The position numbers and the translations under genes are program-made. The notes beneath the pieces were generated by a model. The model worked only from the letters and a program-made list of their open reading frames with translations, ran no database searches and had not been told where the DNA came from. A stretch of 64,000 nt of DNA from a virus. Location: positions 51,692 to 115,691 of the IMG/VR virus record IMGVR_UViG_3300033075_001734; one strand, written 5' to 3'. This document shows positions 6,411 through 44,830 of the stretch, piece after piece. Numbering within the stretch: position 1 is the stretch's first letter; the number at the start of each line of letters is the position of its first letter.

Positions 6411-6628
6411 TGAAAATTATATTTGAAACAGAAAAAGATTGGACTAAACGTGTCAAATGCACAAAATGCAATTGTTCTATAGAACTTGACGTTCATGATC
6501 TTGATTACATTTCAAATCGATGTGATGGTGCATCATATCAATGGCAATGTCCTAAATGTAAATATTATACATTTTTGAATGCAACAAAAATTCCCGCCAA
6601 TATAAGATGTATTATACGAGGCCTTTAA
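6404..6628 (+). CDS. small CxxC...CxxC zinc-ribbon protein
   Basis: Motif KCTKCNC...CPKCK. It is a tandem paralog of the next ORF. Confidence 0.4.
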   Translation: MVMKIIFETEKDWTKRVKCTKCNCSIELDVHDLDYISNRCDGASYQWQCPKCKYYTFLNATKIPANIRCIIRGL

Positions 6629-6862
6629 ATGAAAATTATTTCTACACCTAAACTTGAACAATGGTCAAAGCAATCTACGTGTACATCATGTAAAACTGTT
6701 GTTGAACTTGAATATCGTGATTTGCATAGTTTTTATAGCGATCAGCGCGATGGTTCATCATGTCAATGGACTTGTCCAACATGTAAACGAAGCGTATATG
6801 AAAATGCGGAAAACATTCCTTCATATGTAAAAATTGCTTATGCAGATGGGCGCTTGAAATAA
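6629..6862 (+). CDS. small CxxC...CxxC zinc-ribbon protein (paralog)
   Basis: CTSCKTVVELEYRDLH...CQWTCPTCK is co-linear with the previous ORF. Confidence 0.4.
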   Translation: MKIISTPKLEQWSKQSTCTSCKTVVELEYRDLHSFYSDQRDGSSCQWTCPTCKRSVYENAENIPSYVKIAYADGRLK

Positions 6863-6977
6863 TGAAACTTAAAACAATTAATAACATTTTAAGAAAATTT
6901 GGAATTGTGTTGGTAGTTGAAATAGGTGATAATTTTGAACCAATTGTTTTACGTATACAACAAGCGAGGTCATTTAA

Positions 6978-7274
6978 ATGAAACAACAAATGACATTAAT
7001 AAAAGTTACAGACGTAGAGCATCGAATGATTATGGATTTCCGAGAAGGAATGAAACAATATATTCATGATAAAACTGCATCATTTAAGAAATCTTATCAT
7101 GATTATCGATATGCGCATCACTATAAATACAAAAATAAATCATTTTGGATTTTAAGTGAATTTTATTCCAGCGACGAAAATTCCATTGAAATGGTTGACA
7201 ATAAGGAATGGGAACAAGAATATTTAGAAAATATCGTTGTTAACACTGATTATTCGTATTTGTGGAATAAATAA
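6978..7274 (+). CDS. hypothetical protein
   Basis: ORF of 98 aa. Confidence 0.3.
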   Translation: MKQQMTLIKVTDVEHRMIMDFREGMKQYIHDKTASFKKSYHDYRYAHHYKYKNKSFWILSEFYSSDENSIEMVDNKEWEQEYLENIVVNTDYSYLWNK

Positions 7275-7801
7275 TGGCACAGCGAATCATCATGTTGGTT
7301 GGACCAGATCGTTGTGGAAAAACCGAAATCGCCAAAGAGCTTTCAAAGCGAACTGGAATTCCAAGATTTAAAGCATCAACAGAACACGATACGTATCTTA
7401 ACGGATTAGGTGGGTTTTTGAATCAATTACTTTATGCCGATCCTCGTGCATTTGATCTTGCAAAACAAATTGGATTTAGCATGATTATGGACAGGGCATA
7501 TCCATGTGAAAAAGTTTATTCAAAAGTTTTCAACAGAAAAACTGATGAAATGGTTCTTGACATCATGGATAAACGTTGGGCATCGTTGGGAACTAAAATT
7601 GTTATTTGTTATCGATCTTCATACAAGGGAATTGTTGATGATTTGGATTCAAGTATTAATGAAACAGTTCTTGAAAAATTGTCACAGGAATATTTTAATT
7701 TTGCCGCGTGGACGAATTGCGATGTCATGATGTTAAATGTCGATGACGAAAATCTTGATCGTGAAGTAACTGAAATAATGAATTGGTTGGAAAGAGAATA
7801 A
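7274..7801 (+). CDS. P-loop nucleotide/nucleoside kinase-like protein
   Basis: Walker A motif MLVGPDRCGKTEIAKEL at the N-terminus, in the size range of dNMP/dN kinases. Confidence 0.45.
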   Translation: MAQRIIMLVGPDRCGKTEIAKELSKRTGIPRFKASTEHDTYLNGLGGFLNQLLYADPRAFDLAKQIGFSMIMDRAYPCEKVYSKVFNRKTDEMVLDIMDKRWASLGTKIVICYRSSYKGIVDDLDSSINETVLEKLSQEYFNFAAWTNCDVMMLNVDDENLDREVTEIMNWLERE

Positions 7802-8481
7802 TGGTTAAAATCACAAATTATGATGATGGGTTTTTTGATGATGGTCGAAAGTATTTTGCTCATGGACTTTTAGCATGGAAAACATTCGTTGAAAATGACT
7901 TAAAAGCAACATCATTAGCAGATTTCGGATGTGGTCAAGGTGATTGGCTTGAACCTCTCAAAAATCTTATTCCCGTTTGGGGTTGTGACGGATACGCCGA
8001 TCCGAATAATCTCAGAATTGATATTGCTGATTTTAGAAAAATTGACATAGGTACAGTTGATCCTAAGACGCTTGATGTCGGGAAACGTGATGTTGTAATG
8101 TCACTGGAAGCAATGGAGCACGTGTCAAACGACAAGGAATCAAATTTTCTCGATTGTCTATTAACGCCAGATCCTAGGCTTGTTGTCTTTGGTGTCGCTT
8201 CTGGTTATGGAATTTATGATCCTAATCAGGTAAAAATCAATCGTTTGGGTGAAGCCATTCCAGGTGGTCCAAAATGGCATGCTCAATTTGGTAGACATCA
8301 TGTTAATTGTCAACCTGTTGATGTTGTCGTTGATAAAATGTTAGCACGTGGTTATACGGTTGATATTCCACTATCTGCAAAATTTGCTTCATTGCGGGTG
8401 CCTTCTGGAAAAGGCATCCGAACAAAGTATGCATTTGCTGGGTTTTATAGAAAGAATACAAGGGTCTATAAAAAACTGTAA
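7783..8481 (+). CDS. class I SAM-dependent methyltransferase-like protein
   Basis: Motif I-like LADFGCGQGDWLEPL and a downstream acidic VVMSLEAMEHV motif. Confidence 0.4.
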   Translation: MVGKRIMVKITNYDDGFFDDGRKYFAHGLLAWKTFVENDLKATSLADFGCGQGDWLEPLKNLIPVWGCDGYADPNNLRIDIADFRKIDIGTVDPKTLDVGKRDVVMSLEAMEHVSNDKESNFLDCLLTPDPRLVVFGVASGYGIYDPNQVKINRLGEAIPGGPKWHAQFGRHHVNCQPVDVVVDKMLARGYTVDIPLSAKFASLRVPSGKGIRTKYAFAGFYRKNTRVYKKL

Positions 8482-8518
8482 CAGTGTAATTGTTAACGTA
8501 TTAAGACTAGAATAACTT

Positions 8519-9256
8519 ATGCTTCATTCTTTCCTAAATACAGGAAAGTCAGTTGTTGTTCATAACACTGACGTATCTGATCGCGATAAAGTCCTTGATG
8601 AATTGCGAGATTTCTTCGGGTATGAAAATGTAGTACCTATTTCAAATTTTAACTTAATGAAGGTAAAATCACTTCTTAAGGATCTTGCAAAGTTTTATGG
8701 CGTTCCTTATGAAGAAGTGAATCATGCAACGAGAACAGTTGAACAATCTGTTCGTTCTGCAACCATGAAACACGGTGATGACAAGAATTTATTTGTATTG
8801 ACATATGAAGAAGCATTAAAGTACGACAAACCGTTTAGTGACTTCATTGAAAAATACCCAGAAGTCGGTAAATCAATGTTGGTTTTGTTCAAACAAAACC
8901 GAAGTTTAAGTCGTCATGCGGGTGGAATTCTTGTATGTGATGACTTACCTAACAAAATGCCTTTAATTACGTCATGCGGTGAACCTCAAACACCGTGGGT
9001 CGAAGGTGTAAGTTCAAAACATCTTGAGAAAATTGGAAATTTTCTCAAGCTCGATATTTTAGGGTTAGAAACGCTTCGCCTTATTGAACGTACTATTGAA
9101 TTAATTATCAAAAAACAAGGTGGAATAATTCAGTTTGAAATTGACGGGAAAGTAAACAGAGTTGTTGGATCAAAAATGATCATGTTGAGTGATGGATCAA
9201 CAAAACGTGCCGATCAATTAAAGGAAAATGATGATATCATGTCCATTTTGCAATAG
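8519..9256 (+). CDS. dnaE: DnaE middle fragment, beginning with a short intein C-part (MLHSFLNTGKSVVVHN)
   Basis: SVVVHN|T is a canonical intein block G / +1 Thr junction. The sequence TDVSDRDKVLDELRDFFGYENVVPIS...GVPYEEV...HAGGILV...LKLDILGLETLRLIE that follows matches the DnaE palm, which would rejoin PDID. Confidence 0.8.
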   Translation: MLHSFLNTGKSVVVHNTDVSDRDKVLDELRDFFGYENVVPISNFNLMKVKSLLKDLAKFYGVPYEEVNHATRTVEQSVRSATMKHGDDKNLFVLTYEEALKYDKPFSDFIEKYPEVGKSMLVLFKQNRSLSRHAGGILVCDDLPNKMPLITSCGEPQTPWVEGVSSKHLEKIGNFLKLDILGLETLRLIERTIELIIKKQGGIIQFEIDGKVNRVVGSKMIMLSDGSTKRADQLKENDDIMSILQ

Positions 9257-10247
9257 AGAATTTAATAAATCACTTAAAAATCATTTAACAAAACATTTTG
9301 AAGGTGAAAATTCTATGATTCGAGCATATGAAAAACATATGAATAAATCTGTTGTTGATTTATATGTCAATTGTGGTAAAAGTGCCACTGAAATTGCGAA
9401 TTTAATTCGTAGCGAATGTAATTGGATTAAACCGTTAAAAGGACATGTTCTTAAATTTCTAGATGATAACAATGTTGTTCGTCGAAAAACGTCGGAAGCG
9501 ATGAAATCGTATTATACACAAAATGATGTATGGAATAAAGATAAAACAAAATATGATCATGAAAGTATAATGAAATATGCTAATTCACGTATGGGTGAAA
9601 ATAATCCAATACATAAAACAACGTTTGAACAACGATCATATTCAAACGCTTTCTCAAAACTTAAACGAGAAGGTCGTTTAGAAGAATTAGAAAAATTAAA
9701 AAGCGATATATCTGACGGGGTCACAAATTGGTTTTCTCAAGACCAAAATTATGAAAAATATATTGCGGCTTATGATGCGGCTCGGCCAAAACAATTAACT
9801 AATGTAAGATTGGGCGTACAAAATTATCACAAACGTTATGCTGACTTGGGATTACCATCGCCAAATAGAATCGCCTGGATTAGTAATCCTGAACTAATTG
9901 TTAAGAGTGCCCTCGAACAACTCAACCTGAAATTCCAGCATCAATGGTATTATGCTCGTGCGTGTTTTGATTTTTATCTTCATGATTACAAAACGATCAT
10001 TGAAGTCAACGGAACATATTGGCACGGTCACGAATCTGTTTTTGAAAATGATGAAATGATTCATCCGAACAAGAAAATTTCAATCAAAGATATTAAAGCT
10101 CGTGACGAACAGAAACGAGTGTATCTTATTGAAAACGGGTTTAAGTTAATAACATTGTGGGATAATGAGTTTAAAACAACAGAAGACGCTGTTAAAATTC
10201 TCGTTGAAAAATTAGAAATTAGTAATGTCGAAAATAACATCTCTTAA
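9228..10247 (+). CDS. endonuclease with an N-terminal zinc finger and a C-terminal Vsr/DUF559-like PD-(D/E)xK domain (putative homing endonuclease)
   Basis: N-terminal CPFCNREFNKSLKNHLTKHFE. C-terminal FDFYLHDYKTIIEVNGTYWHG...ARDEQKRVYLIENGFKLITLWDNEF resembles the Vsr-like fold. It interrupts dnaE. Confidence 0.5.
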   Translation: MMISCPFCNREFNKSLKNHLTKHFEGENSMIRAYEKHMNKSVVDLYVNCGKSATEIANLIRSECNWIKPLKGHVLKFLDDNNVVRRKTSEAMKSYYTQNDVWNKDKTKYDHESIMKYANSRMGENNPIHKTTFEQRSYSNAFSKLKREGRLEELEKLKSDISDGVTNWFSQDQNYEKYIAAYDAARPKQLTNVRLGVQNYHKRYADLGLPSPNRIAWISNPELIVKSALEQLNLKFQHQWYYARACFDFYLHDYKTIIEVNGTYWHGHESVFENDEMIHPNKKISIKDIKARDEQKRVYLIENGFKLITLWDNEFKTTEDAVKILVEKLEISNVENNIS

Positions 10248-11745
10248 AAAAGTTTCAACTACGTTTGAAGACATCAAATTGTGGTATGAACAAAACATGT
10301 CACCTGATGTCATAAACTTTGATGATCCTGAACCATTTAAAGTTTATTCTGATTCACGTTGGTGCGGCGTATTTCAACTAACCTCTGTGGGAGCTCAGAA
10401 GCTCTTTACAAAGGCAAGGCCAAAATCGATTATCGATATTGCAGCATTGACATCTGTTTATCGACCTGGGCCTTTGTCTGCAAACGTTGATAAACTTTGG
10501 TTGAAACATGAATTTGAATCTTATGATTGGGGTCATCCTCTTATCAATGAAACACTAAAAGAAACTCGAGGATTATGCGTGTTTCAGGAAAGCGTAATGT
10601 CTTTAGCTAATAAAGTTGCTGGATTCCCGCTTGATGAAACTGACGAGGTCCGTCGGGCAATTATGAAGCGTAGCATTTCAGGTGGTGCTGCTGCAATTCA
10701 GAAAATGAAAGAACTTGAAGACTCTTTCGTTAATGGTTGTATGAACAATGGTGTTCCTCAAAATACTGCAACCAAAGCTTATGAGACTATATGTCATTTC
10801 TCTGGATATGGGTTCAATAAAAGTCATGCAGTCGCCTATGCAATCTGTTCATATTGGTGTGCATGGCTTTTAACATATCACGAGGAAGAATGGGTAACTG
10901 CATATATTGAATCAATGTCAAATTCACCAGATAAAAAAGAAAAAGCATTTGGTGAAGTTAAACAATTAGGTTATGAAATTGTTCCCATTGATATCAATCA
11001 TGCCCAGATTGGTTGGACTGTTCTTCCCGGCAAAAAATTGATGCCAAGTCTTTTGACATGTAAAGGTATTGGCGAATCAGCAGCCGAAGAAGTTATTGCA
11101 AATAGACCTTATGAAAATATTGAGCAAGTTCTTTGGAACGAAGATGGAACTTGGAAACCATCAAAATTCAATAAACGTGGTCTTGAAGCATTAATAAAAG
11201 TGGGTGCATTTGCTTCACTTGATTGTGTTGGTGAAGATAAACTTTTTGAGAGTTATCGTCATATGTATGAGGTCATCATTGAAAACTCAAATGCCATTAA
11301 AAAATCATCTAAAAAAGATCCGAGTATTGGCCGTAAGACATTCTTCGAATTAACTCGGGCCCTTCGACCAATGCCTGAATGGTCTAGACGAGAGTTAGTT
11401 GAGGCATATGTTGACGTGTTTGGAAGTTTGGATGTTTCCAAACTGTTAGAACAGGATGTTCTTAAGAAACTTGAAGACAAGAACGTCATGTCAATTGACA
11501 ACTGGGAACAAAAGGGCTTTCACTGGTTTGTTGTTCAGAGTGTTGTAACAAAGAAAACAAAAACAGGAAAAGCGTACTTAATGATTAAGGGTCTTGGTCC
11601 GATGGGAAAGTCTTATAGAATTAATGTGTGGGGTTGGAAAGAAGAAAATGAACCGCTTGAAGAATTTGATGTTATTGTTGCTGAACTTGATAAAAATGAA
11701 TATGGATTTTCAACAACGTCATGGCGATGTAAGGTGATTGCATGA
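10225..11745 (+). CDS. dnaE: DnaE C-terminal fragment (fingers and OB-fold region)
   Basis: Motifs GVFQLTSVGAQKLF...ALTSVYRPGPL and GYGFNKSHAVAYAICSYWCAWLLTYH (the FNKSHA.AYA DnaE motif). Confidence 0.85.
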   Translation: MSKITSLKKVSTTFEDIKLWYEQNMSPDVINFDDPEPFKVYSDSRWCGVFQLTSVGAQKLFTKARPKSIIDIAALTSVYRPGPLSANVDKLWLKHEFESYDWGHPLINETLKETRGLCVFQESVMSLANKVAGFPLDETDEVRRAIMKRSISGGAAAIQKMKELEDSFVNGCMNNGVPQNTATKAYETICHFSGYGFNKSHAVAYAICSYWCAWLLTYHEEEWVTAYIESMSNSPDKKEKAFGEVKQLGYEIVPIDINHAQIGWTVLPGKKLMPSLLTCKGIGESAAEEVIANRPYENIEQVLWNEDGTWKPSKFNKRGLEALIKVGAFASLDCVGEDKLFESYRHMYEVIIENSNAIKKSSKKDPSIGRKTFFELTRALRPMPEWSRRELVEAYVDVFGSLDVSKLLEQDVLKKLEDKNVMSIDNWEQKGFHWFVVQSVVTKKTKTGKAYLMIKGLGPMGKSYRINVWGWKEENEPLEEFDVIVAELDKNEYGFSTTSWRCKVIA

Positions 11746-14896: not shown

Positions 14897-15139
14897 TTGG
14901 GCAATCGTTTAATGATTTATCCTGGCAGTTTATGCATATCACGTAGATGTATTGTGTTATTGAAAAACAAAAGAATGGTGAATCAATATTTCGGAGTGAT
15001 TTCTGCTAAATCACCATTTTTTATTGTCAGCATTGAAGAATTAACTTTTGATCGGTATTCATTATATGTAATAACATCTTCAATGCAAAAAATGGGTTGG
15101 ATTTATGATCTAAGTTCTAGCTTTGATTTGGTGGTATGA
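14897..15139 (+). CDS. PGDL/GWI small-protein family member
   Basis: Carries YPGSLCI and GWIYDL. Confidence 0.4.
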   Translation: MGNRLMIYPGSLCISRRCIVLLKNKRMVNQYFGVISAKSPFFIVSIEELTFDRYSLYVITSSMQKMGWIYDLSSSFDLVV

Positions 15140-15178
15140 AAATGCGAACATTTGATAAGTTATTCACGATGAAAAAAC

Positions 15179-15430
15179 ATGATATATCCCGGTGATTTAT
15201 GTATTGTACGAAGATTTAATGGGTCTGATTCATTTATCCCAGTTTATGATAAAAATTTCATCTTTTCTAAGAATAAAGTATGCATAGGGGGCTTTAAACA
15301 TATGTGTCTTGTTATTTGTTCGTTAACAATTAAGGGTGATTCATATTCTTCGTATTATATCATATCAGATAATGGTCTAACAGGCTGGATTTACGAATCA
15401 AAGTTTTTGATGAATACAAAATCTGTGTAG
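15179..15430 (+). CDS. PGDL/GWI small-protein family member
   Basis: Carries YPGDLCIV and GWIYES. Confidence 0.45.
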   Translation: MIYPGDLCIVRRFNGSDSFIPVYDKNFIFSKNKVCIGGFKHMCLVICSLTIKGDSYSSYYIISDNGLTGWIYESKFLMNTKSV

Positions 15431-15477
15431 TTTAATAGTAATGTTATTATGCATTCTAGTGAATTAAAATAAAATAA

Positions 15478-15699
15478 ATGAAAATTTATCCCGGTATGTT
15501 GTGTAAAATTGTTGGAGCTTTTGAAAATGACATACACATAATGATGCTTGATTGCGAAGATTATACTGATGCTTTTTTAGTTAAAAAAAATTCTTTAGCA
15601 TTAATTTTAACACAACATGGAGATGGGATGTTAGTGTTGTTAACGTCAACAAAACAAATTGGAACTATACATAGTTGTGTTTGTGATATTATAGGTTGA
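15478..15699 (+). CDS. PGDL/GWI small-protein family member
   Basis: Carries YPGMLCKIV and IGTIH. Confidence 0.4.
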   Translation: MKIYPGMLCKIVGAFENDIHIMMLDCEDYTDAFLVKKNSLALILTQHGDGMLVLLTSTKQIGTIHSCVCDIIG

Positions 15700-18862: not shown

Positions 18863-19423
18863 ATGACTTGTATACTTGGTTTAGTTGATGGTAAAACAGT
18901 TTATGTTGGTGGTGATAGTGCAGGAACTTCAGGTGATTTATCGCAAAGAATAATTGGTGATAAGAAAGTTTTTAAACGTGATGCCGTTGTTTTTGGTGTG
19001 TGTGGTTCACCAAAAGTCATGGATGCGCTTATGCATGTTTTAGTTGTTCCCAAACGTAAAACAGGTCAAGATGTTGGTGAATACGTAAGAAGAGATTTAG
19101 TTCCTTCACTAAAAAAAGTTCTTGCAGAAACTGGGTGTGTTTCTAATAATGAACAACATAATGAATTATTTGAAGGTGCAATCATGGTAGGTTGTCATGG
19201 AAAACTCTTTGTAATTGAAAGTAATTTTCAAGTGATTACAAATGCTTATGGATTTGATTCTGTTGGTTCGGGTTCTGATATAGCAATAGGTTCGATGCAT
19301 GCATCAATGAAAGAACGTAATGCTAAAAAACGCATGTTGATGGCTCTTGAAGCATCGTCAATAAATAATGCAGGTGTTCGTCCTCCGTTTACAATTGTTT
19401 CAACATCAAAAGGTCTGTTCTGA
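18863..19423 (+). CDS. HslV/proteasome-beta-like Ntn hydrolase
   Basis: MTCILGLVDGKTVYVGGDSAGT resembles HslV [21 protein letters not shown], with Thr2 as nucleophile. GSGSDIAIGS resembles IGSGG. Confidence 0.55.
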   Translation: MTCILGLVDGKTVYVGGDSAGTSGDLSQRIIGDKKVFKRDAVVFGVCGSPKVMDALMHVLVVPKRKTGQDVGEYVRRDLVPSLKKVLAETGCVSNNEQHNELFEGAIMVGCHGKLFVIESNFQVITNAYGFDSVGSGSDIAIGSMHASMKERNAKKRMLMALEASSINNAGVRPPFTIVSTSKGLF

Positions 19424-19974
19424 TGACATGTATTGTCGGTGTTAATCACAATGGTAATATATACATTGGAGGCGACAGTGCAGGTGTTGCAGGTTTACAA
19501 CTTCAAATAAGATCAGATGAAAAAGTATTCTTAACGGGTGATTTTATCATGGGGTTTACGACCTCATTTAGAATGGGTCAATTATTGAGATATGCTTTCT
19601 CACCTCCGGAACACTCGCAAAAAAAAGATGATATGACATATCTTGTCACAGATTTTGTTGATTCTGTGCGTGATTGTTTTAGGGACAATGGATATTTAAC
19701 AAGAGAGTCTGACGTAGAATCTGGTGGCTCGTTTTTATTTGGATATAGAAATAATTTGTATTCAATGGAAGATGATTTTCAAATTGCAAAATCACAAGCT
19801 AATTTTGCAGCATGTGGATGTGGTGCTCAAGTCGCATTAGGCGCAATGGCCGCGAGTCGAACTCTGGGGTTAACACCAGAAAAAAGAATAGAATTGTCAT
19901 TGCTCGCCGCAGAAGAATTTAGCGCAGGAGTGAGGGGACCATTTACAATTTTAATGTTGCCTAAGGCGGAATAA
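19423..19974 (+). CDS. HslV/proteasome-beta-like Ntn hydrolase (tandem paralog)
   Basis: MTCIVGVNHNGNIYIGGDSAGVAG and CGCGAQVALGAM. ATGA overlap with the previous gene. Confidence 0.55.
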   Translation: MTCIVGVNHNGNIYIGGDSAGVAGLQLQIRSDEKVFLTGDFIMGFTTSFRMGQLLRYAFSPPEHSQKKDDMTYLVTDFVDSVRDCFRDNGYLTRESDVESGGSFLFGYRNNLYSMEDDFQIAKSQANFAACGCGAQVALGAMAASRTLGLTPEKRIELSLLAAEEFSAGVRGPFTILMLPKAE

Positions 19975-25675: not shown

Positions 25676-26524
25676 ATGAAACAAATTACGGTAAGTGAAA
25701 AAGCAATAAGAGATCTTGTACGTGAAGCTTTAGAAGGGGACGTTGTTATTGATGTCAATGATGTCATTGATCCATCTGCCGCACAAACAAATCCGATCAA
25801 CGCCGAATTTGTTCCTACAACTAGACCCGAACTTGACGTAGCTGTTAAACAGTTAACAAAAGATATCCCGGGTGATAGAATTTCGCCCGCGTATAAATCA
25901 ATTAAAGATGCTATTAAAGCTGACGAAGTTCAGCGTGAAAAGGATGACAAAATGAAAGCAGATGATAAAAAGAAAGCAGTTGAAGAAACTGTTCGCCGCG
26001 CCGTTAGAAAAACATTAAGTGAAATTAATCCTCGATTTGATACGTCATATTCAGGCATGGATTACAGTTCTGGTGATGATGATGATGATGAAGATGATCT
26101 TGATTCTGATAAACCGAAACGAACGTATAAAGCGACAGCCTTAGGAAATATGGCAGACGTTGATGGTGCCTCATTTGAAGAGATTGCAACAGAATTAGGG
26201 TTCTCAGTTGCAGGGGCGAAACAGGCTGTAGATAAGGCGCTAGAAAAAGCCCAATTCATTGCAGCAACTGACTCAGATGAAATGGAAATTATTGTTCTTA
26301 CTACAATGTCAGATTATATCAAAATGCTTGCAAAGACAGGCGAATTGTCATCTGCTGATGTGACACTTTTGAAAGATCACCCAGCGATTGTTCGTGAACT
26401 TGACGGATTCCGTGATTATCTTCATAATTCAATTCGCAGAGCACGAAAAGCAACTGCGGTTGTTAATCCTTTGGGAGAAGCGAAAATGCCTCGCCGAAGT
26501 GGTAAACAGTTACCACGTTCATGA
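25676..26524 (+). CDS. acidic protein with a capsid-targeting-like N-terminus
   Basis: N-terminus MKQITVSEKAIRDLVREALEG and a DDDDDEDDLDSD stretch. Confidence 0.4.
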   Translation: MKQITVSEKAIRDLVREALEGDVVIDVNDVIDPSAAQTNPINAEFVPTTRPELDVAVKQLTKDIPGDRISPAYKSIKDAIKADEVQREKDDKMKADDKKKAVEETVRRAVRKTLSEINPRFDTSYSGMDYSSGDDDDDEDDLDSDKPKRTYKATALGNMADVDGASFEEIATELGFSVAGAKQAVDKALEKAQFIAATDSDEMEIIVLTTMSDYIKMLAKTGELSSADVTLLKDHPAIVRELDGFRDYLHNSIRRARKATAVVNPLGEAKMPRRSGKQLPRS

Positions 26525-26530
26525 TAATTT

Positions 26531-27256
26531 ATGCACGTCGTTTATTGTCACACCAACCTGATTAACGGGAAGTGTTATGTTGGTGTGACACCTATGACTG
26601 CAAAAATTGTTCCTGAAAATGTAAGTGAACAAGAGTTTGCAATTGATTTGATGAACAAACGTTTTGCTCGTCATGTTTATGATGCAACGTCCAGAAATCT
26701 TCCTTATGCTTTTCATTCAGCGATAAGACTTCACGGGAAAGATAGTTTTACGCATAAAATTTTAGAAATTTGTGATTCTCTTGAAGATGCATTCAAAAAA
26801 GAAATTCAGTTTATCATTGATCTAAAGTCACGAACAACAGAAAATGGTTATAACATAAAACCCGGCGGTGAAGGTTGTGCTCCGAGTGTAAGTGCAAATA
26901 AGCGAAAAAGTGAAGGTTTGAAAAAGCGTTGGGCAGTTTTAGGTGCAAAAGAAAAACATAGTCAAGTTATGAAATCAGTTGCAAAAAGATTAGGCTCAAA
27001 AGAAAAGCTCTCAGATATCATGAAAGTCGTTTCTAATCGACCTGAAGAAAAGGCTCGAAGATCTGTAATCGCCAGGACAAAATTTTCGAAATCTGTAATT
27101 CAAATTTGTGCAAAAACAAATCAAGAAATCAAAAAGTTTTCTTCATTAAAAGAAGCAAGTGAACATACGTCAATACGTTCTGTTTATATATCAAGGTGTG
27201 CTCGTGAAATAATTCATGAAATTAATGGATTTAAGTGGAAGTTTGTGAATAATTAA
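26531..27256 (+). CDS. GIY-YIG homing endonuclease (Seg/I-TevI-like)
   Basis: VVYCHTNLINGKCYVGVT (GIY...YIG), NUMOD-like K/R repeats, and a C-terminal GFKWKFVNN resembling the I-TevI DNA-binding tail. Confidence 0.8.
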   Translation: MHVVYCHTNLINGKCYVGVTPMTAKIVPENVSEQEFAIDLMNKRFARHVYDATSRNLPYAFHSAIRLHGKDSFTHKILEICDSLEDAFKKEIQFIIDLKSRTTENGYNIKPGGEGCAPSVSANKRKSEGLKKRWAVLGAKEKHSQVMKSVAKRLGSKEKLSDIMKVVSNRPEEKARRSVIARTKFSKSVIQICAKTNQEIKKFSSLKEASEHTSIRSVYISRCAREIIHEINGFKWKFVNN

Positions 27257-27282
27257 AATTACGAAAGAATCAGAATCAGAAT

Positions 27283-27720
27283 ATGAAATTAACATTGTCT
27301 CAATTAAGAAAATTAATTAACGAAGCTGTTCGTGTTGCACGTGTCGTTGTTGAAATTTCCACCGGACCTAACGGTCTTCCGACGATTACAAAAGAAGCAC
27401 TAGGGAAAATTGCGCCAGAAGCTCTGACTGCTCCAATGAACTCGGGAGAAAATCAAGAAGAACTTGATAAGAATCTCGAGATGATCTGGTTAATTACTAG
27501 CAGGCCAAAGAAGGTTCGCGATCCCGATGCCGACCCCGACGATGACGATGACGATGAGGTAACCTACACGGGTACAAATGAACCTGAATTAGGGGAATGG
27601 ATTGCCGATGCGTGGAAAGATTACGCCGTTACAATTAATGGTAAAAAATGGTTGTCCTATGTGGGTCGTGGGATGATGAATATGGATACATTTGGGACAA
27701 TACAAAAAAACAATGGATAA
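27283..27720 (+). CDS. hypothetical protein with a capsid-targeting-like N-terminus
   Basis: N-terminus MKLTLSQLRKLINEAV and an acidic PDADPDDDDDDE stretch. Confidence 0.4.
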   Translation: MKLTLSQLRKLINEAVRVARVVVEISTGPNGLPTITKEALGKIAPEALTAPMNSGENQEELDKNLEMIWLITSRPKKVRDPDADPDDDDDDEVTYTGTNEPELGEWIADAWKDYAVTINGKKWLSYVGRGMMNMDTFGTIQKNNG

Positions 27721-27755
27721 ATTATGCTTTTTAACAATTACGAAAGAATCAGAAT

Positions 27756-28127
27756 ATGAAATTAACATTACCTCAATTAAGAAAACTTGTCGAATCAACA
27801 GTAAAAGATGTCATGAAATCAAAGAGATCTTTGAGAGAAACTTTCGGCGATGAAACCGATGATCCAAATCATCCAATGCATGATTACGAATCAAACCTAG
27901 AAGGACAAGAATGTCCTGATTGTGGTGGAACAAATACTGTTTCGAATGAAAGCGTTCCATCGATGATGGGTTATGGAACTGATGATTCGTCTCATTGTAA
28001 TGATTGTGATTCTGATTTTTCATTTGATCCATTTTCAGGTCGTCCAAATTCTTCAAAAACAGGCGGTATGAAAGCATCTCTTGATCGTCACGTTAAAGAA
28101 TCAAGAATGAGAACACGTAGACGCTAA
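27756..28127 (+). CDS. zinc-ribbon protein with conserved N- and C-terminal cassettes
   Basis: MKLTLPQLRKLVESTVKDVMKSK...CPDCGG...CNDCDS...TGGMKASLDRHVKESRMRTRRR. Confidence 0.45.
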   Translation: MKLTLPQLRKLVESTVKDVMKSKRSLRETFGDETDDPNHPMHDYESNLEGQECPDCGGTNTVSNESVPSMMGYGTDDSSHCNDCDSDFSFDPFSGRPNSSKTGGMKASLDRHVKESRMRTRRR

Positions 28128-28283
28128 ATGTTTTATCAATCAGCACCCATTGAATGGGTGCTGAATGGAAAAAATAGTTATTATGTGTGGTTCATATGAC
28201 GATGAATATGGTATTATATTGGGATAATACTGAAAAACAATGGATAAATTATACTTTTTAACAATTACGAAAGAATCAAGAAT

Positions 28284-28586
28284 ATGAAATTAACATTACC
28301 TCAATTAAGAAAACTTGTCGAATCAACAGTAAAAGATGTCATGAAATCAAAGAAGAAATCTTTGAGAGAGGATTTTAGTTTAGTAGATGTAACTTGTCCT
28401 GAATGCGATAGTTACAACGTTGGTTATTCTAACCAACCTGGCGTTTGTGAATGTGAAGATTGTGGTGCTGAGTTTGATTATGAAAATGAAGAATATGAAA
28501 ACGAAACTCATTCTGAAACAGGCGGTATGAAAGCATCTCTTGATCGTCACGTTAAAGAATCAAGAATGAGAACACGTAGACGCTAA
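28284..28586 (+). CDS. zinc-ribbon protein paralog (identical N- and C-terminal 22 aa, different core)
   Basis: Same termini as 27756-28127. Core CPECDS...CECEDCG. Confidence 0.45.
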   Translation: MKLTLPQLRKLVESTVKDVMKSKKKSLREDFSLVDVTCPECDSYNVGYSNQPGVCECEDCGAEFDYENEEYENETHSETGGMKASLDRHVKESRMRTRRR

Positions 28587-29378
28587 ATGTTTTATCAGTC
28601 GGCACCCGTTGTTGCTTCTGTTCAATTTGCACCTGAATTATTAAACGTGCAAAAGAATATGACTGTTGCGCTTCAAATGTGTTTTGAGGCTGCAGCAAAG
28701 GGTGCTCGTGTGATTGTTCTTCCTGAACTTTGTTTAAGTGGTTATGTTCTAAGAACACCTCGAGAAGCATTAGAGTGTGCTCAAGAAAAAGACGGGTATC
28801 AATCTGAGGCATTTATTCCGATTGCAAGACGATTTAATTGCCATATTGTTTTTGGGTATGTTGAACTTTGTGAAGGGAAACTTTATAACTCTGCTGTCGT
28901 CATTGGACCTAACGGTGTTGTCGGGAACTTCCAAAAACACAATGGATATGGCAGTGACTTTTTGTGGTTCACTGCATCTGAACAATATCCAGCACGAGTC
29001 GTAACTGACGTTGGTAGGTTAGGTGTTCTTATTTGTCGTGATGCAATGAATGAATATCGTCAAAGTTATAAGTTTAACCATGATGAAAAGTTTTATCGTA
29101 AAGGTGATATTGATGTTCTTGCTCTGCTAACAAATTGGGGGAATTCATATGGATTCCCAGATGCAACATGGGTTGAACTCGCAGAAGAACTTGATACAAA
29201 TGTCATTGTGTCAAATCGAATTGGAAAAGAACGTGATATGAAATGGAAAGGTGGATCTTGTATAATCACAAGAGATCTTAAAGTTCAGTCATATGGAAGT
29301 TCATTTACAGAACCCACTGTTGTGGGAGGAATAATTCATGAAATTAATGGATTTAAGTGGAAGTTTGTGAATAATTAA
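28587..29378 (+). CDS. carbon-nitrogen hydrolase (nitrilase superfamily)
   Basis: RVIVLPELCLSGY (catalytic Glu) and GVLICRDAMNE (catalytic Cys). Confidence 0.75.
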   Translation: MFYQSAPVVASVQFAPELLNVQKNMTVALQMCFEAAAKGARVIVLPELCLSGYVLRTPREALECAQEKDGYQSEAFIPIARRFNCHIVFGYVELCEGKLYNSAVVIGPNGVVGNFQKHNGYGSDFLWFTASEQYPARVVTDVGRLGVLICRDAMNEYRQSYKFNHDEKFYRKGDIDVLALLTNWGNSYGFPDATWVELAEELDTNVIVSNRIGKERDMKWKGGSCIITRDLKVQSYGSSFTEPTVVGGIIHEINGFKWKFVNN

Positions 29379-29399
29379 AATTACGAAAGAATCAAGAAT

Positions 29400-29755
29400 A
29401 TGAAATTAACGTTGCCTTAATTAAGAAAACTTGTCGAATCAACAGTAAAAGACGTCATGAAATCAAAGAAGAAATCTTTGAGAAAATCAAAGAAAGTTGT
29501 ATGTCCTGAATGTGGAAGTGATGAAATTGAATTTGACTTAATAGATGTGAAAAATAAACGTGAATTTAATGAATGTCAAGATTGTGGAACTGAATTTGTT
29601 GATAGTAAAGATGATGGATCTGTTTACACGTGAATGATGACTACCTGAACGATGATCTCTCTGCATGTCCTGAATGTGGAAGTGAAGATGTAGATTTAGA
29701 TGCTACACAACATTCAAAATTTATCGTTTGTAATGATTGTGGAAATGAATATTAA
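29400..29755 (+). pseudogene. degenerate third copy of the MKLTLPQLRKLVESTVKDVMKSK zinc-ribbon gene
   Basis: Same 5' cassette, but codon 7 is TAA (CAA>TAA). Two zinc-ribbon modules follow, separated by TGA and a frame change (29631-29633). Confidence 0.45.
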
Positions 29756-43178: not shown

Positions 43179-44075
43179 ATGCATACGTCAGTTAAAGAAG
43201 CTTTTTACGGATTTACTGAAAAATTTGAAGGTGCAGTTCCTTGGATGTATCTTGATATCAAAGGCCTTGTCACAGTCGCGGTAGGAAATCTTATTGATCC
43301 TGTTTCTCTTGCTGTGAATTTACCTTTTATCAATATGAAAACGTTGTCACCTGCAACAAAAAGTGAAATTGTTGCAGAGTGGAATTTGATTAAATCAAAC
43401 GTTCAATTAGCTAAAAAGGGACATAAAGCTGCTGAAAAAATAGCAAAATTACGAATGACAATTGACGGGATGTCAAATCTTGTTAACTATCGATTATTAC
43501 AAAATGAATCTTATTTAAGAAAACGATTTCCAAAATTAGATGAATGGCCTGCAGATGCTCAGCTTGCATTATTTTCAATGGCGTGGGCAATGGGTCCTGC
43601 ATTTAAATTTGCAACGCTTGAAAAAGCATTAAATGCAGGGAAGTTTGATGTATATGACGTTAACGGTCGTCATCTTTGTTGGATGAATGACAAAAACAAT
43701 CCTGGTCTTCGACCACGCAATATTGCGAATGTTAAATTGTTTGAAAATGCTGCCAAGGTTGTTAAAAACAATCTTGACATTTCTGTTTTGTATTATCCTT
43801 CTCCTGTCAAAATCGCCGAAGAAACAAAATCAACGCCAGCCGTAGATACACAAGTACCCGAAGTTAAGCCTGTTATTCTTGAACAACAAGAGCCTGAAGA
43901 GCCATTTCCACTGCCCACAGTTGAAGCACCAATTATTCAAGCTCCAGAAATTAAGAAGCCAACCATAAAAACAACGAATAAACCTGATAAAAGTTTGGCA
44001 TTTTTGTTGTTTATGATTTTTGGTACTGTTGGTTGGTTATTTAAGACGATTTTCTTGTATTTTAAAGGTGAATAA
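43179..44075 (+). CDS. GH24 (T4 e-type) lysozyme with a Pro-rich linker and C-terminal TM
   Basis: FEGAVPWMYLDIKGLVTVAVGNLI resembles the T4 lysozyme E11/D20/T26 region. The C-terminus LAFLLFMIFGTVGWLF is hydrophobic. Confidence 0.65.
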   Translation: MHTSVKEAFYGFTEKFEGAVPWMYLDIKGLVTVAVGNLIDPVSLAVNLPFINMKTLSPATKSEIVAEWNLIKSNVQLAKKGHKAAEKIAKLRMTIDGMSNLVNYRLLQNESYLRKRFPKLDEWPADAQLALFSMAWAMGPAFKFATLEKALNAGKFDVYDVNGRHLCWMNDKNNPGLRPRNIANVKLFENAAKVVKNNLDISVLYYPSPVKIAEETKSTPAVDTQVPEVKPVILEQQEPEEPFPLPTVEAPIIQAPEIKKPTIKTTNKPDKSLAFLLFMIFGTVGWLFKTIFLYFKGE

Positions 44076-44830
44076 TGTTTACTCCTAAACTTGGTGGATG
44101 GCGAAAAGACGAAGAATCAATTAAAGATTTAAAATTTGATGACTTGAAATTTAAATTGAGCGCGAATGCAGATTATGTCGATTTGCGAAGAATGTGTTCG
44201 CCAATTGAAAAACAGTTGCAGTTATCATCATGCGTTGCAAATGCTGTAGTTGGTGGTCTTGAATTATTGTTACGCGAGCGCTCTGGCGACAACACAGATC
44301 TTTCGAGGCTTTTCATATATTACAATTCGAGGCTTATGAATGGCGAACAGGATAAAGATGAAGGAACATATAATCATCTTGCAATGGGGGTATTGTCATC
44401 ATTGGGTTCATGTCCAGAAGAGCTTTGCAAATATGAAGTTGAAAATGTTTTCACTAGACCTTCATGGAAAGCATATAGACATGCTCATGTAAATAGAGTT
44501 GATAAATATTATCGTATAAGTTCAACCGGCACAGCACGTATTCAAGATATTAAAATCGCATTAACAGCACATTTCCCAGTTGTTTTTGGTTGTATTGTTG
44601 ATGATGAGTTTGTAAAAACAAATTCTTCTGGTTTTGTTAATATGCCTATTGAACCACGAACGGGAACGGGTGGGCATGCAATGTTAATCGTTGGATTTAA
44701 TCAAACACATTTTATCGTGAGAAATTCTTGGGGTGAACTTTGGGGTGACAATGGTTATTGTTATATTCCCTTTGATTATCTTGATGCTACAAATGCAAAT
44801 GATTTTTGGGTTATGACAGGTGTTAAATGA
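44075..44830 (+). CDS. papain-like (C1) cysteine peptidase
   Basis: QLSSCVANAV (Cys) and GGHAMLIVGF...RNSWGELWGDNGY (His/Asn/Trp block). Confidence 0.75.
   Translation: MFTPKLGGWRKDEESIKDLKFDDLKFKLSANADYVDLRRMCSPIEKQLQLSSCVANAVVGGLELLLRERSGDNTDLSRLFIYYNSRLMNGEQDKDEGTYNHLAMGVLSSLGSCPEELCKYEVENVFTRPSWKAYRHAHVNRVDKYYRISSTGTARIQDIKIALTAHFPVVFGCIVDDEFVKTNSSGFVNMPIEPRTGTGGHAMLIVGFNQTHFIVRNSWGELWGDNGYCYIPFDYLDATNANDFWVMTGVK

What the first reader, a model, noticed from the sequence alone, without database searches (positions are those of the whole stretch)
27213..29755. Recent tandem duplication cassette with chimeric gene ends and a decaying third copy
A roughly 530-bp unit is tandemly duplicated (27690-28220 and 28220-28750). 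It comprises an intergenic TTAACAATTACGAAAGAATCA(G/A)AATATG leader, a conserved 22-aa N-terminus, a variable zinc-ribbon core, a conserved 22-aa C-terminus (TGGMKASLDRHVKESRMRTRRR) and the first 8 codons of the downstream nitrilase gene (MFYQSAPI..., a truncated remnant at 28128). A third copy at 29400 carries a CAA>TAA nonsense at codon 7 and an internal frameshift. The last 12 codons of the GIY-YIG endonuclease (EIIHEINGFKWKFVNN) are identical to the last 12 codons of the nitrilase gene (29335-29378). So the repeat has fused the same 3' end onto two unrelated genes. This looks like active cassette shuffling, possibly promoted by the adjacent GIY-YIG endonuclease.
Basis: seen in the sequence. 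Interest (0 to 1): 0.65.

Follow-up and report, generated by a model that had tools for sequence, protein, structure and literature searches.

The report
Recombining zinc-ribbon gene cassettes in phage
A large uncultivated phage carries a small island of zinc-ribbon genes that share the same start and end sequences, and recombination at those shared ends duplicates, deletes and swaps the genes, next to a homing endonuclease whose tail got pasted onto a neighbouring enzyme gene; this is a natural example of a kind of phage genome plasticity already known from T4-type phages.

Summary
Four genes (A 27283, B 27756, C 28284, D 29400) share a leader plus an N-terminal module. B and C also share an identical C-terminal module abutting the nitrilase start. 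The unit [A 3' end, leader, Zn gene, nitrilase 5' stub] is tandemly repeated with a period of about 527 nt. A 65-nt exact repeat puts the endonuclease's last 15 codons onto the nitrilase.

Relatives give the polarity. Sister phages have one Zn gene, a 251-aa nitrilase ending VVGGRI[LI]*, and an intact 173-aa D. So the endonuclease tail, the second Zn unit and the D pseudogene are all derived.

The Zn gene is a true cassette. Its ends are 84-100% identical between alleles, while its cores are no more alike than shuffled sequence.

Contigs more than 98% identical, from other samples, differ in structure exactly at the repeats. D carries a 164-nt deletion or lacks it, the stub varies, C occupies both slots, C plus the nitrilase is deleted, and the nitrilase joins A.

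The best explanation is repeat-mediated unequal recombination, an "accordion", in a hyperplastic island. Endonuclease involvement is plausible, with SegB of T6 as precedent, but it is not shown here. This is a new member of a known kind and of moderate interest.

The parts
26531..27256 (+). Free-standing GIY-YIG homing endonuclease (241 aa). Its C-terminal NUMOD1-like DNA-binding tail ends ...REIIHEINGFKWKFVNN*.
   Evidence: PHROG 314 'homing endonuclease' E 2.9e-26, aligned to residue 240 of 241. Weak Pfam matches below the curated cut-offs: GIY-YIG (19.8 bits vs 22.6) and NUMOD1 (20.6 bits vs 22.8). Present with the same tail in sister phages L123-L126 and absent in L127.
27208..27272 (+). 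Copy 1 of the 65-nt exact repeat: the last 15-16 endonuclease codons, the stop, and the leader AATTACGAAAGAATCA.
   Evidence: 100% identical to 29330-29394.
27283..27720 (+). Gene A (145 aa here). It shares the leader and the first 11 codons (MKLTLSQLRKL) with the Zn genes. The window allele is frameshifted by -1 in a poly-A run near 27641-27646; the ancestral stop is at 27733-27735.
   Evidence: All other contigs encode 150 aa. The L127 ortholog ends ...CGTYDDEYGYIWNNTGKEWISYAF*.
27637..28163 (+). Tandem unit 1: A 3' end, leader (27736-27755), Zn-ribbon gene B (27756-28127, 123 aa), and the nitrilase 5' stub.
   Evidence: Self-BLAST blocks 27643-27838 ~ 28169-28369 and 28052-28152 ~ 28511-28611.
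28128..28164 (+). Truncated nitrilase start (MFYQSAPI) running into an 11-bp hairpin (28140-28164). This is the junction of the tandem units.
   Evidence: dG -22.3 kcal/mol, z -5.6; there is no such fold at the real nitrilase start. Polymorphic: +12 nt in L005 and L014, hybrid in L018, a stem mismatch in L013.
28164..28262 (+). Relic of gene A's ancestral C-terminus (…CGSYDDEYGIIWDNTEKQWINYTF*), carried along in unit 2.
   Evidence: (88% to 27643-27735) and comparison with L127 A.
28263..28586 (+). Leader plus Zn-ribbon gene C (28284-28586, 100 aa). It has the same N-module (75-nt exact match to B) and the same 22-aa C-module as B, but an unrelated core.
   Evidence: Ortholog P0124 sits in sister phage L126.
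28587..29378 (+). Nitrilase-superfamily (CN_hydrolase) gene, complete through ...VVGG-II. After that it carries 13 foreign residues (HEINGFKWKFVNN) from the endonuclease tail (29340-29378); the exact repeat runs from 29330 and also covers its two Ile codons.
   Evidence: Pfam PF00795 E 2.9e-23. 120 homologs end VVGG + 3-4 aa at 250-256 aa. Sister phages end VVGGRI[LI]*. E47, K117 and C150 are present.
29330..29394 (+). Copy 2 of the 65-nt exact repeat. It is part of a 159-nt ectopic copy (29328-29486) of [endonuclease tail + leader + Zn-type N-module]. The left junction GGAGGA|ATAATT has at most 4 nt of microhomology.
29400..29755 (+). Gene D, a pseudogene in this window. It has TAA at codon 7 (29418-29420) and a frameshift near 29627-29632. 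Its 3' half is orthologous to the last two ribbons of a 173-aa gene in sister phages.
29498..29685 (+). Direct repeats (29498-29521 and 29662-29685, CPECGS-coding) that bound a 164-nt deletion polymorphism. The short form restores the reading frame.
   Evidence: Short form in L001, L002, L004, L008, L014, L116, L118. Long form in the window, L003, L006, L011, L115, L119.

Best explanation
**What it is.** The region is a hyperplastic accessory-gene island lying between two core genes of a large uncultivated phage. Its small genes carry portable homology modules, and ordinary phage recombination at those modules keeps rearranging the island.

**The modules**
- A translation leader plus an N-terminal-helix coding module: AATTACGAAAGAATCA..ATG MKLTL.QLRKL..., 25-75 nt exact between copies.
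- For the Zn-ribbon subfamily, a C-terminal module fused to the nitrilase start (82 nt exact).

**How it works.** Recombination between these modules, within one genome or between co-infecting relatives, has three outcomes:
- It exchanges the unrelated Zn-ribbon cores as cassettes.
- It places two alleles (B and C) in tandem through an unequal crossover. That crossover's illegitimate joint is the nitrilase stub | A-tail junction at 28153-28164.
- It deletes or converts units.

**The endonuclease tail on the nitrilase.** A separate illegitimate, microhomology-level joint copied the endonuclease's last 15 codons, the leader and the Zn N-module onto the nitrilase/D boundary. This lengthened the nitrilase by 13 residues and overwrote the 5' part of D, which then decayed. 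The resulting 65-nt exact repeat now brackets a 2122-nt segment (A-B-C-nitrilase). That segment can itself expand, contract or circularise, like an accordion.

**Shown:** the anatomy, the polarity of every chimera, the cassette pattern, and structural polymorphism at the repeats.

**Inferred:** the order of events, the recombination mechanism, and any role of double-strand breaks made by the adjacent GIY-YIG endonuclease. I put that role at about 0.35.
For: **Repeats and anatomy.**

**Ancestral state.**
- Sister phages at 82-93% nt identity (L123-L126) show p282 - endonuclease - one Zn gene - 251-aa nitrilase - 173-aa D - p278.
- L127 shows p282 - (no endonuclease) - A - one Zn gene - nitrilase.
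- Across 80 more distant loci the core order is p282 - nitrilase - pterin-4a dehydratase, with gaps of 0-2 kb at both junctions.

**Cassette pattern.** Between alleles the N-module is 84-96% identical and the C-module 86-100%. Cores are 42-53% identical, against 44.1 +/- 1.7 for shuffled sequence. The flanking genes are 92-94% identical. Seven distinct cores are known in all.

**Polymorphism among contigs more than 98% identical.**
- D long versus short, a 164-nt difference, inside contigs of 13-47 kb from many samples.
- Three stub variants, including a hybrid whose switch point lies in only 6 shared nt, which an assembler cannot create.
- C core in both slots (L018).
- C plus nitrilase deleted (L014).
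- Nitrilase joined to A (L005).

**The repeats are real.** Five k=31 (Logan) contigs from five runs stop at 27237, inside the 65-nt repeat, and three contigs from three other runs start at 29423, inside D's N-module, as expected for real repeats.

**Precedents.** PeSL-mediated shuffling and mini-circles (PMC2839356). SegB-dependent tandem amplification with a microhomology joint in the segB 3' region (PMC13096335).
Against: - No read-level or long-read data were available.
- Several variant contigs are short (1-2 kb). They pass through exact repeats of 32-82 nt without private SNPs (L007, L011, L012, L121, and partly L005 and L014), so they could be graph chimeras.
- The order of events cannot be reconstructed uniquely.
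- The donor configuration for the 159-nt copy (endonuclease tail directly before a Zn-type N-module) does not exist in the present window genome. It exists only in sister phages, so at least two steps or an inter-phage exchange are needed.
- No endonuclease-free version of this exact strain was found, and the endonuclease's cleavage site is unknown.
Confidence: 0.75

Rival explanations
1. **Endonuclease-driven segmental amplification and collapse (SegB-like).** The GIY-YIG enzyme cuts near the leader/N-module sites. Repair by recombination creates tandem repeats, with one joint in the enzyme's own 3' end. Later collapse leaves the endonuclease-tail scar on the nitrilase and the B-C tandem.
For: - The endonuclease sits directly upstream of a leader in every lineage that has it. 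In the window that leader precedes A, and in L123-L126 it precedes the Zn gene. A tail relic lies before D.
- The illegitimate joint lies in the endonuclease's 3' region, with microhomology only. This matches the T6 segB repeat unit (PMC13096335).
- Contig L005 shows the nitrilase -> tail -> leader -> A junction expected of a tandem repeat of the 2122-nt unit.
- A distant relative (L022) has a different GIY-YIG gene inserted in the nitrilase 3' end. The nitrilase tail is duplicated there and recoded at every wobble position.
Against: - There is no evidence of cleavage specificity.
- Every rearrangement is equally explained by recombination at repeats without a site-specific break.
- The B/C tandem joint (stub | A tail) is not in or next to the endonuclease gene.
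- L127 lacks the endonuclease yet belongs to the same cassette system, with a different core.
Confidence: 0.35
2. **Plain intragenomic tandem duplication followed by rapid divergence.** Under diversifying selection or hypermutation of the core, B and C would be true recent paralogs.
For: - The flanks of the two units are 88-100% identical.
- Both cores are CxxC...CxxC zinc ribbons.
Against: - The cores are at shuffled-sequence identity, while synonymous sites of the flanking modules are intact.
- C has an 85%-identical ortholog in sister phage L126, whose flanks are only 92-95% identical. C is therefore an old allele, not a new copy of B.
- No reverse transcriptase or other diversity-generating element was seen near the locus.
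Confidence: 0.1
3. **Assembly artefact.** The repeats would cause expansion, collapse or chimeric joins in a metagenome assembly.
For: - Short-read assemblies were used.
- Exact repeats of 65-82 nt are present.
- Some variant contigs are clearly flawed: L012 has a snap-back end, L106 a foreign tail, L011 has Ns.
Against: - The window arrangement is reproduced in independent assemblies, made with three assemblers, from at least 7 other samples. These include contigs of 22-47 kb.
- The two units have different cores, so they cannot arise by expansion of one copy.
- Sister phages independently carry the same modules.
Confidence: 0.03

Closest known systems
PeSL-mediated modular shuffling in T4-type phages (Arbiol et al. 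2010, PMC2839356; Comeau et al. 2014, PMC4122927)
   Same: - Short conserved sequences are repeated between small non-essential genes of a hyperplastic region.
- These sequences serve as recombination sites for insertion, deletion, replacement and excision of circles.
- Closely related phages differ at exactly these sites.
   Different: - Here the repeated module is a translation leader plus coding N- and C-terminal modules, not a promoter plus terminator stem-loop.
- No sigma-70-like promoter is found in the leader, and the leaders are unstructured.
- The phage is unrelated to T4: it has a DnaE-type polymerase, and no DNA match to any cultured phage.
SegB (GIY-YIG) dependent segmental amplification in phage T6 (Chihara et al. 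2026, PMC13096335)
   Same: - A free-standing GIY-YIG endonuclease lies next to the amplified or rearranged segment.
- The repeat joint has only microhomology and lies in the 3' region of the endonuclease gene.
- Copy number is unstable, in accordion fashion.
   Different: - In T6 the unit contains most of segB, and nuclease dependence was shown experimentally. Here only the last 15 codons are repeated, and nothing is known about cleavage.
- The tandem B/C joint is elsewhere.
- The cargo is Zn-ribbon ORFans and a nitrilase, not a tRNA.
Polymorphic internal-protein genes of T-even phages, which share only a capsid targeting sequence (reviewed in PMC3012670)
   Same: - A set of highly diverse small proteins share only a short conserved N-terminal sequence.
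- Alleles differ between close relatives.
- In T4 these proteins are injected anti-restriction proteins.
   Different: Packaging and proteolytic removal of the N-module are untested here. There is no sequence similarity to the T4 CTS. The Zn subfamily also has a conserved C-terminal module.
Free-standing homing endonucleases inserted in or beside genes, with duplication or recoding of the target gene's end (T4-type phages, reviewed in PMC2988022)
   Same: - In relative L022 a GIY-YIG gene sits in the nitrilase 3' end and ends with a recoded copy of the nitrilase C-terminus.
- In the window the reciprocal chimera exists: the nitrilase ends with the endonuclease tail.
   Different: The window chimera is not an insertion of an endonuclease gene. 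It is a 159-nt partial ectopic copy. The window enzyme and the L022 enzyme are only 33% identical over their N-terminal domains.

Membership tests
GIY-YIG free-standing homing endonuclease | GIY-YIG catalytic domain at the N-terminus | tested here: met
   PHROG 314 and 5123 'homing endonuclease (GIY-YIG)', E 2.9e-26 and 6e-07. The Pfam GIY-YIG match is weak (19.8 bits against a cut-off of 22.6). Motif residues VVY...CYVG are visible.
GIY-YIG free-standing homing endonuclease | C-terminal DNA-binding module (NUMOD/IENR-type helix-turn-helix) | tested here: met
   NUMOD1 at residues 198-224 (20.6 bits, just below the 22.8 cut-off). PHROG 3855 HTH at 188-237.
GIY-YIG free-standing homing endonuclease | Presence/absence polymorphism at the same site among relatives | tested here: met
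   Present between p282 and the next gene in the window and in L123-L126. Absent in L127, which has a 110-nt intergenic stretch (183 nt from the start of the contig to A's ATG) there instead.
GIY-YIG free-standing homing endonuclease | Site-specific cleavage of the endonuclease-less allele and unidirectional gene conversion | not testable with these tools
   Needs purified protein or co-infection crosses.
Nitrilase superfamily (CN_hydrolase, PF00795) | Profile match and Glu-Lys-Cys catalytic triad | tested here: met
   PF00795 E 2.9e-23. E47, K117 and C150 are invariant in the alignment with 10 homologs.
PeSL regulatory cassette | Strong sigma-70-type early promoter next to a terminator stem-loop in each repeat | tested here: not met
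   No promoter-like site lies in any of the four leaders. The leaders have no stable fold. The only strong hairpin (28140-28164) occurs once and lacks a T-run.
Homing-endonuclease-driven segmental amplification (SegB type) | Tandem repeat unit with a joint of microhomology in the endonuclease 3' region | tested here: inconclusive
   The joint GGAGGA|ATAATT lies 15 codons before the endonuclease stop. Only one short contig (L005) shows the nitrilase->A junction of an actual tandem repeat.
Homing-endonuclease-driven segmental amplification (SegB type) | Dependence on the nuclease activity and on phage recombination proteins | not testable with these tools
   Requires genetics in a cultured phage-host pair.
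Capsid-targeting-sequence (T4 internal protein-like) proteins | Short conserved N-terminal peptide shared by otherwise unrelated proteins, ending in a protease site (T4: [LI]xE) | tested here: inconclusive
   A motif h[KRQ]xhh(x)E occurs within the first 22 residues of 16 of 108 ORFs, against 2.6 expected. The motif was defined post hoc. Examples include LVE|S and INE|A. There is no similarity to the T4 CTS itself.
Capsid-targeting-sequence (T4 internal protein-like) proteins | Presence in virions and cleavage of the N-terminal peptide | not testable with these tools
   Needs virion proteomics.
Zinc-ribbon proteins | Two CxxC (or CxxC/CxxH) knuckles about 10-25 residues apart | tested here: met
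   B has CPDC...CNDC, C has CPEC...CEDC, and D has CPEC...CQDC plus CPEC...CNDC. Pfam zinc-ribbon matches are weak and all but one are below the cut-offs. The AF2 model is low-confidence (pLDDT 56).

The most novel reading that the evidence does not exclude
The shared N-terminal helix (MKLTL.QLRKLhxE and its looser versions on about 13-16 proteins across the window, including a NUDIX hydrolase and a sigma-region-4-like protein) would be a targeting tag. It could be a capsid-targeting or propeptide signal cleaved after the Glu. The hypervariable Zn-ribbon proteins would then be virion-delivered anti-defence effectors. Their cores would be swapped, and their dosage changed, by an endonuclease-assisted genomic accordion. 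That would make this a natural, non-T4 counterpart of both the T4 internal-protein system and SegB-driven amplification.
Probability: 0.15. Interest if true: 0.7.

Novelty: new member of a known kind. Interest (0 to 1): 0.45.

Why it matters
- **A natural-population view.** The locus shows short conserved gene ends acting as recombination handles in a phage lineage with no cultured relative. Allelic cassette exchange, tandem stacking of two alleles, deletions that restore a reading frame, and gene-end chimeras are all visible between genomes that are otherwise more than 98% identical.
- **Support for a laboratory finding.** It gives field support to the recent T6 result that loci next to free-standing GIY-YIG endonucleases expand and contract.
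- **Candidate host-interaction genes.** It marks a small family of hypervariable Zn-ribbon proteins and a widespread N-terminal tag as candidates for host-interaction functions.
- **An annotation warning.** The 13 C-terminal residues of this nitrilase and the 'intergenic' DNA at 28128-28262 are scars of recombination, not native features.

Tried and rejected
1. **PeSL-type promoter/terminator in the repeats.** No promoter-like site lies in the leaders, and they are unstructured.
2. **Relatives in cultured phages or IMG/VR.** There was no DNA hit in INPHARED. There was no exact leader match and no p278 relative in IMG/VR.
3. **A '267-aa nitrilase' in L011 as a native-tail allele.** The extra residues come from Ns in a scaffold.
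4. **The 220-aa versus 241-aa endonuclease as a disrupted allele.** The DNA is identical, and only the gene caller's start choice differs.
5. **The L012 3' end and the L106 'B variant'.** One is a snap-back and the other a foreign tail. Both are assembly flaws and were ignored.
6. **An apparent similarity between the A tail and the endonuclease tail.** I dismissed it once L127 showed that the A tail is a conserved coding C-terminus.
7. **The intact 63-aa D in L121.** It comes from a k=31 contig that crosses a 34-nt exact repeat. L014 at the same junction still has the TAA, so an intact D allele is not established.
8. **Structure prediction of B.** Mean pLDDT was 56, so no fold search was run.
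9. **Wider family search.** Only about 8 clusters turned up among 1.8 billion representatives, so the Zn family is confined to this phage clade.
10. **Rfam and tRNA scans of the window.** Neither found anything.


Full report
**1. What is in the sequence**

The window is AT-rich (34% GC). It encodes a large phage-like gene set:
- a DnaE-type polymerase in pieces
- GroEL
- thymidine kinase
- dCMP deaminase
- superoxide dismutase
- NUDIX enzymes
- RNA ligase

. It has no DNA match to any cultured phage.

Between 26.5 and 29.8 kb all genes are on the + strand:

| Gene | Coordinates | Product |
|---|---|---|
| GIY-YIG homing endonuclease | 26531-27256 | 241 aa |
| A | 27283-27720 | 145 aa |
| B | 27756-28127 | 123 aa, Zn ribbon |
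| C | 28284-28586 | 100 aa, Zn ribbon |
| Nitrilase-superfamily gene | 28587-29378 | 263 aa |
| D | 29400-29755 | broken gene |

.

Self-comparison gives the following repeats:
- A 65-nt exact repeat, 27208-27272 = 29330-29394. It holds the last 15 codons of the endonuclease, the stop, and AATTACGAAAGAATCA.
- The leader plus N-terminal coding module, present four times before A, B, C and D. The longest exact runs are B/C 75 nt, C/D 34 nt and A/B 25 nt.
- A block 27643-27838 ~ 28169-28369 (88%).
- A block 28052-28152 ~ 28511-28611 (95%, 82 nt exact). This holds the 22-aa C-terminus of B and C plus the first 8 nitrilase codons.

The 16-nt leader core occurs only at these four places in 64 kb.

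**2. Polarity of the chimeric ends**

The tail ...IIHEINGFKWKFVNN belongs to the endonuclease:
- The homing-endonuclease profile PHROG 314 aligns to residue 240 of 241.
- HTH and NUMOD1 profiles cover residues 188-237.
- Sister phages carry the same enzyme with the same tail.

The tail is foreign to the nitrilase:
- The 120 best-scoring homologs listed (of 523 found) are nearly all 246-261 aa long, and the ten that were aligned end 3-4 residues after an invariant VVGG.
- The three closest relatives end VVGGRII* or VVGGRIL*. Their stop overlaps the start of the next gene.
- The window nitrilase is otherwise complete and keeps its Glu47-Lys117-Cys150 triad.

The joint is GGAGGA|ATAATT. The parental sequences share at most GGAA there, so this is an illegitimate, microhomology-level junction.

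**3. The ancestral arrangement, from relatives**

Eighty metagenomic loci encode nitrilases 59-75% identical in protein. They share the core order p282 - nitrilase - pterin-4a dehydratase. Between 0 and 2 kb of variable DNA lies at each of the two junctions. The window's extra genes therefore lie in two hyperplastic junctions.

Closer relatives at 82-93% nt identity show:
- **L123-L126:** p282 - endonuclease - leader - one Zn-ribbon gene - 251-aa nitrilase - a 173-aa four-ribbon gene (MKITIKQLKKLVEST...) - p278.
- **L127:** p282 - about 110 nt of non-coding DNA in place of the endonuclease - A (147 aa) - one Zn gene - nitrilase.

Several conclusions follow:
- The second Zn unit, the endonuclease tail on the nitrilase and the state of D are all derived in the window's lineage.
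- D is not a third copy of the unit. Its 3' half (from 29607) is orthologous to the last two ribbons of the 173-aa gene.
- The 5' part of D was overwritten by a 159-nt copy (29328-29486) of [endonuclease tail + leader + Zn-type N-module]. That copy is 92-94% identical to the endonuclease-Zn junction of L123 and L126.
- The 'intergenic' stretch 28164-28262 reads ...CGSYDDEYGIIWDNTEKQWINYTF*. That is the ancestral C-terminus of A, as the L127 A shows.
- The window's own A has a -1 frameshift in a poly-A run. All other contigs encode 150 aa.

**4. The Zn-ribbon gene is a cassette**

Five alleles differ in their cores: B, C, P0123, P0125 and P0126. P0124 is a close variant of C. All begin MKLTLPQLRKLVESTVKDVMKSK... 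and end GGMKA[SA]LDRHVKE[ST][RK]MR[TS]RRR.

| Segment | Nucleotide identity between alleles |
|---|---|
| N-module | 84-96% |
| C-module | 86-100% |
| Flanking endonuclease and nitrilase | 92-94% |
| Cores | 42-53% |
| Shuffled-sequence control for cores | 44.1 +/- 1.7% |

. The one exception is C against its L126 ortholog, at 85%.

Point mutation cannot erase the core while leaving the synonymous sites of the ends intact. The cores must therefore be exchanged by recombination within the conserved ends.

The family is tiny. About 8 clusters were found among 1.8 billion representatives, two of them (P0130, P0131) with the N-module only.

Because B and C are different alleles, the tandem is most simply explained by an unequal crossover. 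The crossover would be between two genomes, or two sister duplexes after an allele swap. It joined nitrilase codon 8-13 of one partner to a point about 31 codons before the end of A in the other.

**5. Structural polymorphism in near-identical genomes**

Exact-protein look-ups returned contigs 98-100% identical to the window. They come from more than 20 samples and three assemblers. I mapped them back to the window.

*Robust differences*
- **D long versus short.** The difference is a 164-nt deletion between the repeats 29498-29521 and 29662-29685. Both forms lie inside long contigs. The short form cancels the frameshift.
- **Three versions of the stub.**
  - The short form makes a perfect hairpin at 28140-28164.
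  - A +12-nt form occurs in L005 and L014.
  - A hybrid in L018 switches from nitrilase-type to stub-type within 6 shared nt. A de Bruijn graph cannot fabricate that.
- **L018.** It carries the C core in both slots.
- **A and its leader.** A is 145 aa here and 150 aa elsewhere. The window's A leader also carries a private 6-nt duplication.

*Tentative differences.* These come from short contigs that pass through exact repeats without private SNPs:
- B joined directly to the full nitrilase (L007, L011, L012)
- loss of C plus the nitrilase (L014)
- nitrilase -> tail -> leader -> A -> B (L005)

L005 shows the junction expected of a tandem repeat, or of an excised circle, of the 2122-nt segment bracketed by the 65-nt repeat.

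Five Logan k=31 contigs (five runs) stop at 27237, inside the 65-nt repeat, and three from other runs start at 29423, inside D's N-module. So the repeats are real in those runs.

The B-C tandem itself is assembled in at least 7 other samples, including contigs of 22-47 kb.

**6. Mechanism and the role of the endonuclease**

What is shown is repeat-bounded rearrangement. What is inferred is homologous or unequal recombination, plus two illegitimate joints: stub | A tail, and nitrilase | endonuclease tail.

A causal role for the endonuclease is suggested by several observations:
- It lies immediately upstream of a leader in every lineage that has it.
- The illegitimate joint lies within its 3' end.
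- A distant relative (L022) has a different GIY-YIG gene sitting in the nitrilase 3' end. That gene ends with a second copy of the nitrilase C-terminus (NFTEAAVVGGIV) that differs at every wobble position. This is the classic look of an endonuclease insertion with a recoded target.
- In T6, SegB was shown experimentally to drive unstable tandem amplification. The joint of that amplification is a microhomology in the segB 3' region (PMC13096335).

None of this demonstrates cleavage here. The B/C joint is not at the endonuclease, and L127 takes part in cassette exchange without having the enzyme. I therefore rank 'recombination at portable homology modules' first (0.75). I treat endonuclease initiation as a plausible add-on (about 0.35).

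**7. Comparison with known systems**

- **PeSL shuffling in T4-type phages** (PMC2839356). The logic is the same, but the defining promoter plus terminator is absent.
- **T-even internal-protein genes.** These are diverse anti-restriction proteins that share only a capsid-targeting sequence (PMC3012670). The resemblance extends beyond this locus. A motif h[KRQ]xhh(x)E lies within the first 22 residues of 16 of 108 ORFs in the window, against 2.6 expected at the internal rate. The motif was defined after seeing the data, so the P-value is optimistic. Bearers include p282, p278, A, B, C and a NUDIX hydrolase with an N-terminal extension. Orthologs in distant relatives keep the motif. Whether it is a targeting or propeptide tag is untested.

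**8. Verdict**

This is a real, well-defined and polymorphic recombination hot spot. It is a new member of a known kind: modular shuffling or a genomic accordion in a phage hyperplastic region, next to a homing endonuclease. It is of moderate interest, mainly as a natural-population example and as a pointer to a hypervariable Zn-ribbon family and an N-terminal tag worth testing.

Noticed in passing
window, N-termini of ORFs at 455, 1822, 22150, 23142, 25676, 27283, 27756, 28284, 29756, 32471, 34862, 37150, 38201, 45135, 51417 (+ strand): Many otherwise unrelated proteins start with an amphipathic motif such as MKLTLGELKCLINE, MKIRLGDLKKIIEN, MRITIRQLRKFIKE or ..LLREYILE. It occurs in 16 of 108 ORFs against 2.6 expected (motif defined post hoc). 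One bearer is a NUDIX hydrolase whose catalytic domain starts only at residue 61. It may be a targeting or propeptide tag.
   Followed up: partly
window 54861-57500 (- strand): An 879-aa protein matches the Major Vault Protein shoulder domain (PF11978, E 4.9e-31) and Vault repeats. An MVP-like protein in a phage-like genome is unusual.
   Followed up: no
window 4332-11745: The DnaE-type DNA polymerase III alpha is encoded in at least three pieces: 4332-6410, 8519-9256 and 10225-11745. Other genes lie between them. These include two tandem small Zn-ribbon ORFs (6410-6862) and a 339-aa protein with a Vsr/DUF559-type endonuclease domain (9228-10247). It looks like a 'genes-in-pieces' polymerase split by mobile elements.
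   Followed up: partly
L022 5721-5768 and 6473-6523: In a distant relative a 252-aa GIY-YIG endonuclease gene is inserted in the 3' end of the nitrilase. It terminates with a second copy of the nitrilase C-terminal peptide that differs at every third codon position, that is, a recoded target duplication.
   Followed up: yes
window 26493-26530, compared with L124 5105-5255: The p282 protein of the window (282 aa) lacks the 40-50-aa Cys-rich C-terminal extension present in sister phages (321-331 aa). So the DNA just upstream of the endonuclease start has also been rearranged.
   Followed up: partly
window 27257-27282 and 27641-27646: This contig has two private changes not seen in any other near-identical contig. 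One is a 6-nt duplication (GAATCA) in the leader of A. The other is a -1 frameshift in a poly-A run that shortens A from 150 to 145 aa. It may be a real allele or a homopolymer error.
   Followed up: partly
L123 2066-2755: In one sister phage the endonuclease is 229 aa and its C-terminal tail is frameshifted (…SVYIYIKVCSWNN*). The enzyme is therefore decaying in some lineages.
   Followed up: no
window 14912-15699 and 18863-19974: There are further tandem paralogs. Three small ORFs start MIYPGSLC, MIYPGDLC and MKIYPGMLC. Two ORFs of about 185 aa start MTCILGLVDGK and MTCIVGVNHNG.
   Followed up: no
window 44075-44830, 47369-48292, 49739-51403: Papain-family cysteine protease (PF00112), ADP-ribosylglycohydrolase (PF03747) and a GroEL chaperonin are all encoded in the same genome.
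   Followed up: no
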